In this document: piece by piece, positions 12,001-15,000 of the stretch
Numbering within the stretch: the stretch's first letter is position 1
How the letters are laid out: each line of letters starts with the position of its first letter
IMG/VR virus record: IMGVR_UViG_2681813201_000018
Span: 1 to 31,647 of that record
Length of the DNA stretch: 31,647 nt
Origin: a virus
Lineage: Duplodnaviria > Heunggongvirae > Uroviricota > Caudoviricetes
Direction: 5' to 3' (one strand)
Position numbers: made by a program

Positions 12001-15000
12001 AAATAATTATTGAAACGGGAATAGCTGGTGGAGATTTTGAGGATGTATTCGAAGTGGACGATGACGCAACACCTGATGAAATTCATGACGAAGCAAAAGA
12101 AATTTTCTTTAACTACTGCAATTACTCATATCACGAAATAAAAGACGAAGAGGAAGAACAAAATGGCTGATTTTGGTTCAACTAAATATAACGTCAGTTA
12201 TGAAGAATGGCATGAATTGTTAATGGACTATGCAGAGTTACGCGGTGGAAGTGCTGCTGATGCTGAAGCCTGGCGTGATGACTATGAAGCAGGAAAAACT
12301 CCGGTCGAAGCATATTGTGATGAGTGGGGCGATGAATGAGCGAAATTAATTATCAGGCGCTACGTGAAAAGGCAGAGAAAGCAACTAAAGGAAGCTACAT
12401 CGTAGGGCATACATCTGTTAACCAGCACGGCAATTTAACAGGAGTTTTTGTTTGTCAAAAATGGAAAGGAGAACCCGGTGGCGTGATTGCCGAATGTCAC
12501 GTTAACTGCCTGGTTGAAACAGATGCTCAGGCTTATGCAAACGCAGAATTCATCGCCGCAGCCAATCCGGCTACCGTCTTGGCGCTGCTGGATGAACGGG
12601 AAAGAAACCAGCAATACATCAAAAGCCGTGATCAGGAGAACGAGGATATTGCGCTAACGGTAGGGAAGCTGAGAGTTGAGCTTGAGGAAGTAAAACAACA
12701 CGCTGAAGAATTATCCGAAACCAAGGCTGTTCGTAACCAATGGCGGCCAGATATTTGCCCAATAACCGGACGTGCATTTTTCATGTGGATTGAGCATCCA
12801 ACATTGGGAAATGTGCCGACATATGGTGGCCCATTAGATAGTTACACCATTCCAACAAAGGACGGTGACGGTGAGTTTTCATGTGAGCGTTACGATCATG
12901 ATTTTGGTGGTTGGGTAGAAAGCGAATGTCTTGGGTTATATCTGATTGATGATAGAGAACAATGCAGGGTCTACGAACTGGAGGAACGCGTTAAGGAACT
13001 GGATGCTCGGGAAATATCGCTCCCGGAACGTAGCAGCATGCTTCATCGAACAGATTATCACGATGATTACCAAACGGTAATGGCATACAAAGTTTCTGAA
13101 GTCATCGCTGCAATCCGCGCCGCTGGCATTCGCATCAAAGGAGAGTGATATGAGCGCTATAACCAAAGAACGTATCAAATTATTCATTAAAAATCCGCTT
13201 GATAACGGACTTACTCGTGGCGAACAAATGGAACTGGCACGAATTGCACTGGCATCACTGGAACGCGAACAGATTCGCCACGAGCATGCCAAATGGTCTG
13301 ACTCCACATTTGGCTGCGTTGGCCCCATTGGTCCGCTGAAACATCTCTCAAAAGAGGCACTGGAAGCCGCAGCCGAACCAGACGATCTTGGCGAGTGGGC
13401 TGATATGCAGTTTCTGTTGTGGGATGCACAGCGCCGTGCTGGCATCAGCGATGCTGAAATTACCGCTGCTATGGAAGATAAATTGAAGATCAACATGAAG
13501 CGCCAGTGGCCTGAACCAAAAGATGGTGAGCCTCGCTTGCACATTAAAGAACCCGGCAACTCTCCGGTAACTCCGGATGGTTGGATAAGCTGTAGTGATC
13601 GAATGCCTGAAAAGGGCCAGAACGTGCTTATTTCGGTGAATTTCGATAGCTCTCTGGTTGAACCGCTAATATGCTCTGCACGCTATACCGGAAGCACATT
13701 CCGGCGAGGAGATGCAACGATTAAGCCGGGTAATGGTATTGAGCAGGCAACTCACTGGATGAAATTACCGGAACCGCCGCAGGAGGTGAGCTGATGGAAA
13801 ATGAAGGCGATAATATCATCACACTGGTGCAGCCAAAGCGCGATGAAGAGAAGCTGCTGAACATTACAGTAACTGGCAGAAAAAACTACACACAACAGAG
13901 CTGTAAGCATCGGGCCATTGAGGTTCATGAACAGGATCGCGTTATCCTGTGCTTGCAGTGCGGATGTGTTGTGGACCCTTTTCAGTATGTTCTGCGGTGT
14001 GCGAACGATGGTGAGGCTGTGGTGAGAGAGATTAGACAGCTTCATAACAGACGCGATCAGCTCCGCGAATCTGTTGCCAGCCTCGAGCGTGAAGAAAAGA
14101 ACACCAAAGCACGGTTGCGGGCAGCAAGAACTGCAATACTGTATGCGGAAAATGACCTTAAAAATATTGAGCAGAAGGTGAATCAATGACCTGGCCTGAA
14201 GCATTCACAACGGTAGGAATCGCGGTGGCGCTGGTGGTGTATTCGATTTGCCGCTGGGGATAAAAACGGTTTGCGGGAAAAGGAGAGTTAAGTAGAATTG
14301 CAGCGGGTGCTTGAGGCTATCTGCCTCAGGCATGATCACCAAAAGGCAGATAGAGAAAAGCCCCAGTTAACATTACGCGTCCTGCAAGACGCTTAACATT
14401 AATCTGAGGCCATATCTATGCGACACATAGAGATTAGCCTCTTACGGACCGAAAGGTCAAGGAGAAGCAGGCTATGAAGCAGCAAAAGGCGATGTTAATC
14501 GCCCTGATCGTCATCTGTTTAACCGTCATAGTGACGGCACTGGTAACGAGGAAAGACCTCTGCGAGGTACGAATCCGAACCGGCCAGACGGAGGTCGCTG
14601 TCTTCACAGCTTACGAATCTGAGGAGTAAGAGACCAGGCGGGGGAGAAATCCCTCGCCACCTCTCATGTGTCAGGCATCCTCAACGCACCCGCACTAAAC
14701 CCGCTTCGGCGGGTTTTTTGTTGCGCGCTGAATGCGCAGGGTGAAAAATAACCATATATTTGATTATATACACAACAAAAAATAAAAGTCATTGCACCTG
14801 CACATTAAATAATCAAATATACGACGTGAAATAAATATTTTTCAGATTAATATTTTTGTCTCTATGTGAATATAACCGTTTGTACTTATAAACCTGGAGG
14901 CATCGTGGAAAAAATAAAAAAACTATTTAGTAGCAAATACGCAGTCATACGTCGTGATGACCTGTCAGTTATAGTCGAAATGGATTACTTCCCTGAAACC

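What the first reader, a model, noticed from the sequence alone, without database searches (positions are those of the whole stretch)
14264..14722. hok/sok-type type I toxin-antitoxin locus inside the prophage
The 51-aa ORF is a clear Hok-family toxin, nearly identical to HokD/RelF as I recall it. It has a long structured leader (inverted repeats around 14305-14360, candidate overlapping mok reading frame and antisense sok region) and a strong terminator (14699-14719). Note relBE is not adjacent here.
Basis: partly seen in the sequence, partly recalled or inferred. Interest (0 to 1): 0.45.

Follow-up and report, generated by a model that had tools for sequence, protein, structure and literature searches.

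The report
Complete hok/sok toxin-antitoxin locus in prophage
This is an ordinary, already well-known hok/sok "host-killing" toxin–antisense RNA module carried by a lambda-like prophage of E. coli O157:H7; it is intact, unlike the truncated hokD copy of laboratory strain K-12, but it is not new.

Summary
The ORF at 14474-14629 (+) encodes a 51-aa Hok/Gef toxin (Pfam PF01848, 82.9 bits). It is 50/51 identical to K-12 HokD and 48/51 to HokW of Stx phage Sp5/933W.

All the RNA elements of a hok/sok locus are present:
- a weak hok promoter, with +1 at G14305
- tac (14305-16), able to pair with fbi (14679-91), with ucb (14358-64), or in a nascent metastable hairpin
- a mok leader ORF with its own Shine-Dalgarno sequence
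- a convergent sok promoter (14431-60, minus strand), with a predicted 69-nt Sok RNA (14424→14356)
- a 3' hairpin and a terminator (14697-14719)

Folding reproduces the published full-length and truncated conformations. Across 32 loci from several genera, the tac–fbi helix shows a compensatory U-A to C-G change with no broken pairs.

- mok is only 19 codons long, and its UGA stop overlaps the hok AUG.
- The Rfam "sok" match is on the sense strand, so it detects the hok mRNA leader, not Sok.

RefSeq already annotates hokD at this position in a record where the 561-nt locus is 100% identical. The 92.7%-identical hokW-sokW locus has been characterised experimentally. Expression, toxicity and biological role were not tested here. 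Verdict: already known, low interest.

The parts
14271..14298 (+). Predicted hok/mok promoter: -35 TTGCGG (14271-76), 16-nt spacer, -10 TAGAAT (14293-98); +1 at G14305
   Evidence: Read from the sequence. The -10 sits 6 nt upstream of the conserved GGGTGCTTGAGG, as in the R1-type locus (TATGAT + 6 nt) and in other loci of A2 (TATAAT/TAGAAT). The region is identical in 933W. The strict promoter scan did not report it, which fits a weak promoter.
14305..14316 (+). tac (translational activator element), the 5' end of the hok mRNA
   Evidence: The Rfam RF01794 model begins here. It pairs with fbi in the full-length MFE, with ucb in the truncated RNA, and within the metastable hairpin 14307-14333 in the nascent RNA. 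Covariation is shown.
14305..14476 (+). Conserved hok mRNA leader. Rfam RF01794 'sok' matches here in the sense orientation.
   Evidence: 107.8 bits against a gathering score of 59, E = 5e-25. Model positions 1-157 end at the hok AUG.
14358..14364 (+). ucb (upstream complementary box, the anti-SD of mok), AAGCCCC
   Evidence: In the full-length MFE, ucb and the bases just downstream (14360-62, 14364-66) pair with the SD-mok region (14404-06, 14408-10). In the RNA truncated at 14664/14668 it pairs with tac. The tac-ucb pairs are 97.7% paired across 32 loci.
14356..14424 (-). Predicted Sok antisense RNA (about 69 nt): 13-nt 5' single-stranded tail covering the mok AUG, a long stem-loop, then CUUUU
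   Evidence: Ends were transferred from the annotated 71-nt sokW of phage 933W (L002 2638-2708). The candidate folds at -31.7 kcal/mol, z = -5.2. No RNA data were available, so the ends are approximate.
14431..14460 (-). Predicted sok promoter: -35 TTGACC (14460→14455), 18-nt spacer, -10 TAATCT (14436→14431)
   Evidence: It is positionally homologous to R1 (TTGCGC, 17 nt, TATCCT) and to 933W (TTGCCT, 17 nt, TAACCT). A mutant in the sokW promoter loses antitoxin activity (PMC8621323). Coordinates were checked. The strict scan did not report it.
14406..14409 (+). Shine-Dalgarno sequence of mok (GAGG)
   Evidence: GAGG is invariant in all 32 aligned loci. It is sequestered by ucb in the full-length fold and paired with dcb (GCCTC, 14437-41) in the truncated fold.
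14418..14477 (+). mok leader ORF: 19 codons (MRHIEISLLRTERSRRSRL), with its TGA stop overlapping the hok ATG (ATGA)
   Evidence: The mok-to-hok ATG distance is 56 nt here. It is 57 nt (in frame) in 27 loci, 58 nt in 8 loci and 56 nt in 3 of 38 loci. The 81-nt mok-hok junction has a best match ≥99% identical in 777 E. coli records; the 12 listed are 100% identical over the full 81 nt.
14474..14629 (+). hok (hokD-type) toxin gene, 51 aa; Shine-Dalgarno AAGGAG at 14459-64
   Evidence: Pfam PF01848 82.9 bits; PHROG 251 113.5 bits; 50/51 identical to K-12 HokD; RefSeq annotates hokD at this position in the record whose 561-nt locus is 100% identical.
14637..14658 (+). GC-rich 3' hairpin, the counterpart of the 3'-terminal stem-loop of truncated R1 hok mRNA
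   Evidence: Present in all folds. It is 93-98% paired across 32 loci, with compensatory changes (helices 6 and 7).
14679..14691 (+). fbi (fold-back inhibitory element), CCTCAACGCACCC
   Evidence: 12 pairs with tac in the MFE and in the centroid. Alignment column pair 48/478 reads U-A in 20 loci, C-G in 11 and U-G in 1, with none unpaired.
14697..14719 (+). Intrinsic terminator of the hok transcript
   Evidence: 8-bp stem (5 G-C pairs) plus a T-run. It is shared with K-12 hokD but not with 933W.

Best explanation
This is an intact hok/sok-type type I toxin-antitoxin module of the hokD/hokW subgroup. It sits as a self-contained unit, with its own promoter and terminator, in the nin region of a lambdoid prophage of E. 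coli O157:H7.

Proposed mechanism, by analogy with R1 hok/sok and Sp5 hokW-sokW:
1. A weak promoter produces a roughly 415-nt mRNA. While it is being made, its 5' end is held in a metastable hairpin.
2. When the transcript is complete, its 5' end (tac) pairs with its 3' end (fbi), and ucb covers the mok Shine-Dalgarno sequence. This full-length RNA is neither translated nor bound by Sok.
3. Slow 3' trimming removes fbi. tac then pairs with ucb, which frees the mok ribosome-binding site.
4. Ribosomes translating the 19-codon mok ORF terminate on the UGA that overlaps the hok AUG. This opens or reinitiates at hok, giving the 51-aa inner-membrane toxin.
5. As long as the short-lived, roughly 69-nt Sok RNA is made from its convergent promoter, its 5' tail pairs with the mok start region and the duplex is destroyed.
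6. When Sok synthesis stops, through loss of the element, transcription shut-off or prophage induction, Hok is made and damages the membrane.

Shown here in silico: the elements, the three alternative folds, and their conservation and covariation. Inferred from relatives: the transcripts themselves, processing, coupling, toxicity and the trigger.
For: - Toxin family.
- Leader family match.
- Full-length MFE and centroid show tac-fbi and ucb/SD-mok pairing, z = -7.55.
- RNA truncated at 14664/14668 switches to tac-ucb plus SD-mok/dcb, and the nascent RNA forms the metastable hairpin. These conformations match those described for R1 in PMC9841398.
- Covariation on 32 loci (Escherichia, Shigella, Kluyvera, Citrobacter, Pseudocitrobacter, Photorhabdus, Pantoea, an R1-type plasmid, 933W): 88.9% of cells are paired against 41-50% when partners are slid, and 18 pairs change on both sides against 10.2 ± 1.6 in shuffles.
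- mok ORF with SD and the ATGA overlap. R1 mutagenesis shows that mok translation is needed only up to the hok start (PMC9841398).
- The 81-nt mok-hok junction has a best match ≥99% identical in 777 E. coli records; the 12 listed are full-length and 100% identical.
- Sok promoter and RNA are homologous to the annotated sokW.
- hokW-sokW is 92.7% identical in DNA. It has been shown to be a toxin/antisense-antitoxin pair, with both RNAs detected by Northern blot (PMC8621323).
- K-12 HokD is toxic when expressed (bioRxiv 10.1101/2025.08.07.668861).
Against: - There are no transcript, processing or toxicity data for this copy.
- Neither promoter passes the strict consensus scan. The sok -10 (TAATCT) matches only 3 of 6 consensus positions.
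- Truncated-RNA folds depend on the chosen 3' end. Ends at 14660 or 14675 keep the closed or metastable form.
- Intact chromosomal hok loci tested earlier (hokA, hokB, hokC) did not give post-segregational killing or rifampicin activation (reported).
- The short-mok arrangement (56 nt) has not itself been tested for coupling.
Confidence: 0.85

Rival explanations
1. The locus is structurally intact but silent. Like the chromosomal hokA, hokB and hokC loci, it would be a decaying passenger that never releases toxin under natural conditions. The 56-nt mok frame would be a frameshift that weakens coupling.
For: [quoted passage not shown] K-12 copies are inactivated (PMC12214031). The 56-nt mok arrangement is a minority, seen in 3 of 38 loci. 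Both promoters match consensus weakly.
Against: There is no IS element, stop codon or deletion. All pairing elements are conserved, with compensatory changes. The 81-nt short-mok junction has a best match ≥99% identical in 777 E. coli records, which argues against a recent defect. [quoted passage not shown] The 92.7%-identical hokW-sokW is functional in its native prophage (PMC8621323).
Confidence: 0.15
2. Rival biological role A: the module mainly serves the phage as a lysis and release helper. Sok would disappear on prophage induction and Hok would permeabilise the inner membrane ahead of holin and endolysin, as reported for hokW-sokW. It would not act as an addiction or defence module.
For: In Sp5, deleting hokW-sokW delays growth arrest by about 40 min and halves phage release. 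sokW RNA vanishes after mitomycin C, and HokW production needs RecA (PMC8621323). In this window hok is co-oriented with the early-right operon. No convincing + strand terminator lies between about 8300 and 14697. The Q-like gene and lysis genes lie downstream.
Against: The evidence comes from one paralogue at a different place in a different phage. The effect there was only two-fold. Whether this prophage can be induced is unknown, and some of its genes are frameshifted.
Confidence: 0.35
3. Rival biological role B: the module stabilises the prophage (killing cells that lose it) and/or acts as an abortive-infection defence. Infection by a phage that shuts off host transcription would deplete Sok and release Hok.
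For: Post-segregational killing is the established role of R1 hok/sok. R1 hok/sok on a high-copy plasmid reduces T4 plating efficiency by 42% (cited in PMC8621323). hok genes are about four-fold enriched in prophages (bioRxiv 10.1101/2025.08.07.668861). The same prophage carries a second type I system, ralR/RalA.
Against: The same preprint found no enrichment of hok next to defence systems. Chromosomal hok loci failed post-segregational killing tests. A single-copy excised prophage is lost rarely.
Confidence: 0.3
4. Taking the Rfam label literally: the antitoxin 'sok' is a 172-nt RNA on the + strand at 14305-14476.
For: Rfam RF01794 'sok antitoxin (CssrC)' matches on the + strand.
Against: The match starts at the hok mRNA 5' end and ends with the hok AUG (alignment), so it models the sense leader. 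The annotated sokW of 933W is on the opposite strand. The promoter-like elements and the stem-loop plus U-tail are on the minus strand. No minus-strand Rfam hit exists because no Sok-strand model is in the library.
Confidence: 0.02

Closest known systems
hokW-sokW (with mokW) of Stx2 phage Sp5 / 933W
   Same: DNA is 92.7% identical over 479 nt of the locus, and Hok is 48/51 identical. The hok promoter region, tac, ucb, SD-mok and fbi are the same. The Sok stem-loop is nearly identical, with one loop base different. The same conserved 25-27-aa small ORF lies upstream. [quoted passage not shown]
   Different: Here mok is 19 codons with its stop on the hok AUG. In 933W, mokW is an in-frame 70-codon extension (57 nt against 56 nt). 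The Sok 5'-tail target differs at several positions and by a 2-nt indel. The sok -35 is TTGACC with an 18-nt spacer, against TTGCCT with 17 nt. This copy has a terminator immediately after fbi, which 933W lacks. The position in the phage genome also differs: the nin region here, the right-end region in 933W.
hokD (relF) of E. coli K-12, Qin prophage
   Same: The toxin is 50/51 identical. The coding sequence, 3' hairpin, fbi and terminator are near-identical. Both lie in a lambdoid prophage. RefSeq names the window's gene hokD.
   Different: K-12 homology begins only about 15 nt upstream of the ATG. There relBE sequence replaces the promoter, tac, ucb, sok and mok, consistent with the reported inactivation 'by genomic rearrangements' (PMC12214031). 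The window copy has the complete regulatory leader and no relBE.
hok/sok of plasmid R1 (parB), the family paradigm
   Same: The order of elements and the alternative pairings are the same: metastable hairpin, tac-fbi, ucb/SD-mok, tac-ucb, SD-mok/dcb. Sok is likewise antisense to the mok start and has a 5' single-stranded tail (PMC9841398).
   Different: The sequences have diverged; HokW, a 48/51 relative, is about 44% identical to R1 Hok (PMC8621323). R1 mok is 70 codons in the +1 frame (58 nt). R1 lacks the long extension of the Sok/sokT hairpin seen here. The replicon is a plasmid rather than a prophage.
hokC (gef)/mokC/sokC-type chromosomal loci
   Same: The leader architecture is the same. 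Two hokC-like loci (E. ruysiae L015, E. whittamii L016) share the 56-nt, 19-codon mok that ends on the hok AUG.
   Different: Hok identity is about 84%. The sokT hairpin is shorter. These loci are in core-chromosome rather than prophage context.

Membership tests
[quoted passage not shown] | Hok/Gef-family toxin of about 50 aa (N-terminal transmembrane helix, conserved C-terminal part) | tested here: met
   Pfam PF01848 82.9 bits over model positions 1-42 of 42; PHROG 251 113.5 bits; 50/51 identical to HokD. NCBIfam Hok models are hit only below their cutoffs (51.4 against 73).
[quoted passage not shown] | Conserved structured hok mRNA leader | tested here: met
   Rfam RF01794 107.8 bits against a gathering score of 59, full model, sense strand.
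[quoted passage not shown] | Long-range 5'-3' pairing (tac-fbi) that closes the full-length mRNA | tested here: met
   12 pairs between 14305-16 and 14679-91 in the MFE and centroid. Compensatory U-A (20 loci) to C-G (11 loci) change with no broken pairs. In silico only.
[quoted passage not shown] | Switch: ucb sequesters SD-mok in the full-length RNA; tac-ucb and SD-mok/dcb form in the 3'-truncated RNA; a metastable 5' hairpin forms in the nascent RNA | tested here: met
   Predicted folds. tac-ucb is 97.7% paired and SD-mok/dcb 100% paired across 32 loci, but these pairs are invariant and so give no covariation evidence. The outcome depends on the assumed 3' end.
[quoted passage not shown] | mok leader reading frame with its own SD, translated through the hok initiation region | tested here: met
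   GAGG + 8 nt + ATG at 14418. The ORF is 19 codons and ends in a TGA overlapping the hok ATG. This is a length and frame variant; coupling itself was not tested.
[quoted passage not shown] | Antisense Sok RNA gene with its own promoter, complementary to the mok translation-initiation region | tested here: inconclusive
   The promoter-like -35/-10 and the stem-loop plus U-tail are homologous to annotated and experimentally detected sokW (PMC8621323). No transcript data exist for this copy, and the strict promoter scan did not call the promoter.
[quoted passage not shown] | 3' exonucleolytic processing activates the mRNA; the Sok-mRNA duplex is cleaved by RNase III | not testable with these tools
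   Needs Northern blots or 3'-end mapping in wild-type, pnp/rnb and rnc backgrounds.
[quoted passage not shown] | Toxicity of Hok, and its neutralisation by Sok | not testable with these tools
   Inferred from HokD (toxic) and HokW/sokW.
HokD (RelF) orthologue group | Near-identity to K-12 HokD protein | tested here: met
   50/51 identical. RefSeq product name is HokD, WP_000813255.1.
HokD (RelF) orthologue group | relBE-hokD gene arrangement as in the K-12 Qin prophage | tested here: not met
   There is no relBE. Upstream are a phrog_1621 gene and a 25-aa ORF. The K-12 arrangement is the rearranged one.

The most novel reading that the evidence does not exclude
The locus may be wired into the phage's own transcription programme. 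It lies co-oriented inside the early-right (nin) operon, and no convincing terminator was found upstream of it. Read-through after induction could therefore collide with the convergent sok promoter. It could also give 5'-extended hok RNAs that cannot close by tac-fbi pairing. Together these would turn Hok on as a timed lysis helper, which would explain the unexplained RecA-dependent loss of sokW RNA in Sp5. A related reading concerns the Sok 5'-tail target, which is far more variable than the adjacent Sok hairpin among near-identical paralogues. It may be a specificity code that insulates the up to 11 hok/sok copies in one genome. The 56/57/58-nt mok frame shifts would then be a by-product.
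Probability: 0.2. Interest if true: 0.4.

Novelty: already known. Interest (0 to 1): 0.12.

Why it matters
It matters little for discovery. hok/sok loci are among the best-studied type I toxin-antitoxin systems. Matches to this locus occur in 4731 of 5426 complete E. coli genomes. hok genes are known to be enriched in prophages, and a 92.7%-identical copy has been characterised.

The practical value is for annotation:
- The RefSeq record that is 100% identical over the 561-nt locus marks only the hokD coding sequence, not mok, Sok or the mRNA elements.
- The Rfam 'sok' model reports the sense-strand leader, so automated pipelines would place the antitoxin on the wrong strand.
- This copy shows what the complete hokD-type locus looks like, whereas the textbook K-12 hokD is a relBE-fused remnant.
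- The short mok ORF whose stop overlaps the hok start is a natural, widespread confirmation of the R1 mutagenesis result: only translation up to the hok start matters.

Tried and rejected
- The strict sigma-70 scan found neither the hok nor the sok promoter. I placed both by homology with the R1-type locus and 933W instead.
- NCBIfam Hok models score below their cutoffs, so I relied on Pfam and PHROGs.
- I tested whether the gene downstream of hok (14866-15117) is the K-12 neighbour Rem, which would have shown synteny with Qin. There was no similarity.
- I first assumed the window was identical to O157:H7 strain Z1813 throughout. A simple offset comparison failed. BLAST then showed collinear blocks, three large ones at 99.6-99.8% and two short ones at 92-94%, with gaps.
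- The sub-threshold Rfam hits on the 3' UTR (isrK 30.6 against 50, rsmX) and ceN48 on the leader were dismissed as hairpin/terminator look-alikes. A genuine isrK lies elsewhere in the window, at 16662-16738.
- I asked whether the Sok-tail target is the single most variable part of the locus. It is not. Two hairpin loops with indels (14336-45 and 14644-51) vary more, so the 'specificity code' idea is kept only as a possibility.
- A local tRNA-Arg-like hairpin around the TACG editing motif is not predicted to be stable.
- A search for a second hok locus in the window found none.
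Full report
**1. The observation**

The region 14264-14722 contains a 51-aa ORF at 14474-14629 on the + strand. The protein is MKQQKAMLIALIVICLTVIVTALVTRKDLCEVRIRTGQTEVAVFTAYESEE.
- It matches Pfam HOK_GEF over the whole model (82.9 bits, cutoff 22).
- It matches PHROG 251 'MokW-like host killing' (113.5 bits).
- It is 50/51 identical to HokD of E. coli K-12 MG1655, differing only at P49S.
- It is 48/51 identical to HokW of phage 933W/Sp5.

The 561-nt locus is 100% identical to a stretch of E. coli O157:H7 strain Z1813, where RefSeq annotates 'hokD: type I toxin-antitoxin system toxin HokD'. Over most of its length the window is 99.6-99.8% collinear with that record (two short segments 92-94%, with gaps). 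It runs from yebY through integrase, excisionase, ralR, recET, kil, repressor-like genes and replication genes, then a Q-like antiterminator, lysis genes, terminase, portal and capsid. 'Inside the prophage' is therefore correct. More precisely, hok lies in the nin region, upstream of NinB-like, HNH and Q-like genes. relBE is absent.

**2. Anatomy** (coordinates verified)
- hok promoter: -35 TTGCGG (14271-76), 16-nt spacer, -10 TAGAAT (14293-98), then 6 nt, then +1 at G14305. The geometry matches the R1-type locus (TATGAT + 6 nt + GGCGCTTGAGG). The region is identical in 933W.
- Rfam RF01794 matches 14305-14476 at 107.8 bits against a gathering score of 59.
- That match is on the + strand. It starts at the mRNA 5' end and ends with the hok AUG, so despite its name ('sok antitoxin') it detects the hok mRNA leader.
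- tac is at 14305-16.
- ucb is AAGCCCC at 14358-64. A long hairpin occupies 14366-14404.
- SD-mok is GAGG at 14406-09, and the mok ATG is at 14418.
- dcb is GCCTC at 14437-41, and the hok SD is AAGGAG at 14459-64.
- Downstream of hok lie a GC-rich hairpin (14637-58), fbi (CCTCAACGCACCC, 14679-91) and a terminator (14697-14719).
- On the minus strand, -35 TTGACC (14460→14455), an 18-nt spacer and -10 TAATCT (14436→14431) are positionally homologous to the sok promoters of R1 and 933W.
- Transferring the ends of the annotated 71-nt sokW through the alignment gives Sok at about 14424→14356.
- This predicted Sok has a 13-nt single-stranded 5' tail that covers the mok AUG, a long stem-loop and a CUUUU end. 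It folds at -31.7 kcal/mol, z = -5.2.

**3. Folding**

The full-length RNA (14305-14719) folds at -173.5 kcal/mol, z = -7.55; none of 100 shuffles did as well.
- Full-length RNA: in both the MFE and the centroid, tac pairs with fbi (12 pairs) and ucb pairs with the SD-mok region. An R1-type hok mRNA folded the same way gives the same architecture.
- RNA truncated just after the 14637-58 hairpin (ends at 14664 or 14668): it switches to tac-ucb and SD-mok/dcb.
- The first 36-56 nt alone: they form a hairpin between tac and the sequence just downstream, at -19.6 kcal/mol.

These are the nascent, closed full-length and open truncated conformations described for R1 hok mRNA (PMC9841398). One caveat applies. 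With other assumed 3' ends (14660, 14675) the MFE stays closed, so the switch is predicted rather than shown.

**4. Comparative evidence**

A scan of one genome per species returned 53 hok loci. I aligned 29 of them with the window, 933W and an R1-type plasmid locus (A2, 32 sequences).
- On the full-length structure, 88.9% of cells are paired, against 41-50% when the partners are slid by 1-3 columns. Eighteen pairs change on both sides, against 10.2 ± 1.6 in shuffles.
- In the tac-fbi helix, one position reads U-A in 20 loci, C-G in 11 and U-G in 1, with none unpaired.
- That same tac base is the bulge in the tac-ucb stem, which explains how it can vary while ucb stays invariant.
- The tac-ucb and SD-mok/dcb pairs are 97.7-100% paired but do not vary, so they give no covariation evidence.

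**5. The mok frame**

Here mok is 19 codons (MRHIEISLLRTERSRRSRL), and its TGA overlaps the hok ATG as ATGA. Among 38 loci with a recognisable SD-mok and ATG, the mok-to-hok ATG distance takes three values:

| Distance | Loci | Consequence |
|---|---|---|
| 57 nt | 27 | mok is an in-frame N-terminal extension of hok, as annotated for mokW |
| 58 nt | 8 | +1 frame, 55-69 codons; the R1 paradigm belongs here |
| 56 nt | 3 | the window, E. ruysiae and E. whittamii |

The 81-nt junction has a best match ≥99% identical in 777 complete-genome E. coli records. The 12 listed are 100% identical over the full length, and all are annotated hokD. It is therefore a common allele, not a private lesion.

R1 mutagenesis showed that mok translation is required only up to the hok start (PMC9841398). 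The short mok should therefore still support coupling. This is an inference and was not tested.

**6. Relation to K-12 hokD**

In K-12, homology to the window starts only about 15 nt upstream of the hok ATG. It continues through the coding sequence, the 3' hairpin, fbi and the terminator. Upstream lies relE. K-12 hokD therefore lacks the promoter, tac, ucb, mok and sok, in line with the statement that it was inactivated by genomic rearrangement (PMC12214031). A relE-hok fusion of the same kind also turned up in a Kluyvera genome (L028). The window carries the complete form of the hokD-type locus.

**7. Closest characterised relative and likely function**

hokW-sokW of Sp5/933W is 92.7% identical over 479 nt. 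Takada et al. reported the following (PMC8621323):
- HokW is toxic, and sokW expressed from its own promoter neutralises it.
- Both RNAs are detectable.
- sokW disappears and HokW accumulates in the inner membrane after mitomycin C, in a RecA-dependent way.
- Deleting the locus delays growth arrest and halves phage release.

R1 hok/sok gives post-segregational killing and partial exclusion of T4 (cited). hok genes are about four-fold enriched in prophages (bioRxiv 10.1101/2025.08.07.668861).

I commit to the canonical hok/sok mechanism for this locus (confidence 0.85). The biological role remains open between lysis helper, prophage stabilisation and defence. A minority possibility is that the locus is intact but silent, as was reported for the chromosomal hokA, hokB and hokC loci.

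**8. Leads beyond the finding**

Among seven closely related hokD/W-type loci, the stretch complementary to the Sok 5' tail (14412-24) differs at 37.5% of pairwise positions. The rest of Sok differs at 6% and the hok coding sequence at 5%. Indels in this stretch are what shift the mok frame. Three paralogues from one E. coli genome (L005, L006, L013) have different tails. This would fit insulation between the many copies in a genome (up to 11 places per genome). However, two hairpin loops vary even more and the sample is small.

Separately, no convincing + strand terminator lies between the start of the early-right operon (about 8300) and hok's own terminator. Read-through on induction could therefore interfere with the convergent sok promoter. 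This is speculation.

**9. Verdict**

The feature is an already known, already annotated kind of element. Interest is low (0.12).

Noticed in passing
window 14186-14263 (+): There is an unannotated 25-aa hydrophobic ORF (MTWPEAFTTVGIAVALVVYSICRWG). Its ATG overlaps the stop of the upstream 131-aa gene (ATGA). It is conserved directly upstream of hokD/W-type loci in 933W (L002 2463-2540), in L005 and L010 (27 aa, with an in-frame 2-codon insertion) and in L024. This suggests a real small membrane peptide that travels with the hok module. It has no Pfam, NCBIfam or PHROG match.
   Followed up: partly
window 14612-14615 (+): The Tyr47 codon TAC followed by G forms the TACG motif used by TadA for A-to-I mRNA editing. 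TACGAA is invariant in all 32 aligned hok loci, including the synonymous positions. K-12 hokD is reported to be about 6% edited at the corresponding Tyr, giving Tyr→Cys (PMC12214031). A stable local tRNA-like hairpin is not predicted here.
   Followed up: partly
window 14412-14424 (+), complementary to the Sok 5' tail: This segment is much more variable among near-identical hokD/W-type loci (37.5% pairwise difference) than the adjoining Sok hairpin (6%) or the hok coding sequence (5%). Its 1-2-nt indels produce the three mok frames (56, 57 and 58 nt). It may determine specificity between paralogous hok/sok copies.
   Followed up: partly
window 14305-14476 (+): Rfam RF01794, labelled 'sok antitoxin', matches the sense strand from the hok mRNA 5' end to the hok AUG. 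It models the hok leader, so automated annotation would place 'sok' on the wrong strand and with the wrong extent.
   Followed up: yes
window 2168-2346 (+), with ralR at about 2346-2540 (-): The same prophage carries a second type I toxin-antitoxin system: RalA sRNA (Rfam RF02694, 219 bits) next to the ralR endonuclease toxin annotated in the near-identical RefSeq record.
   Followed up: no
window 16649-16850, 16988-17071, 17976-18231 and 7094-7145: A cluster of known prophage sRNAs scores above Rfam gathering thresholds. It includes c4-a1b1, isrK and C4 antisense RNA just after the Q-like gene, sRNA-Xcc1, STnc100 and the anti-GcvB sRNA AgvB (18170-18231, minus strand), and DicF (7094-7145, minus strand). 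The host SdsR/RyeA pair lies at 462-606, next to the attachment side.
   Followed up: no
window 14720-14865: An AT-rich spacer lies between the hok terminator and the next gene. It has two promoter-like sites on the minus strand (14792→14763, 10 of 12 matches; 14845→14816), pointing back towards the hok terminator. Its function is unknown.
   Followed up: no
L028 (Kluyvera sp. CHPC 1.2972) and L007 (E. coli ECDA1023): The K-12-type relE-hokD junction, in which the hok leader is replaced by relBE sequence, also occurs in a Kluyvera genome. The rearranged relBE-hokD cassette has therefore spread beyond E. coli.
   Followed up: no
L018 (Acinetobacter idrijaensis contig, 275 nt) and L024 (Xanthomonas pisi contig, 431 nt): These very short contigs carry 98-100% identical E. 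coli-type hokD sequence in assemblies of unrelated genera. They are most likely assembly contamination.
   Followed up: no
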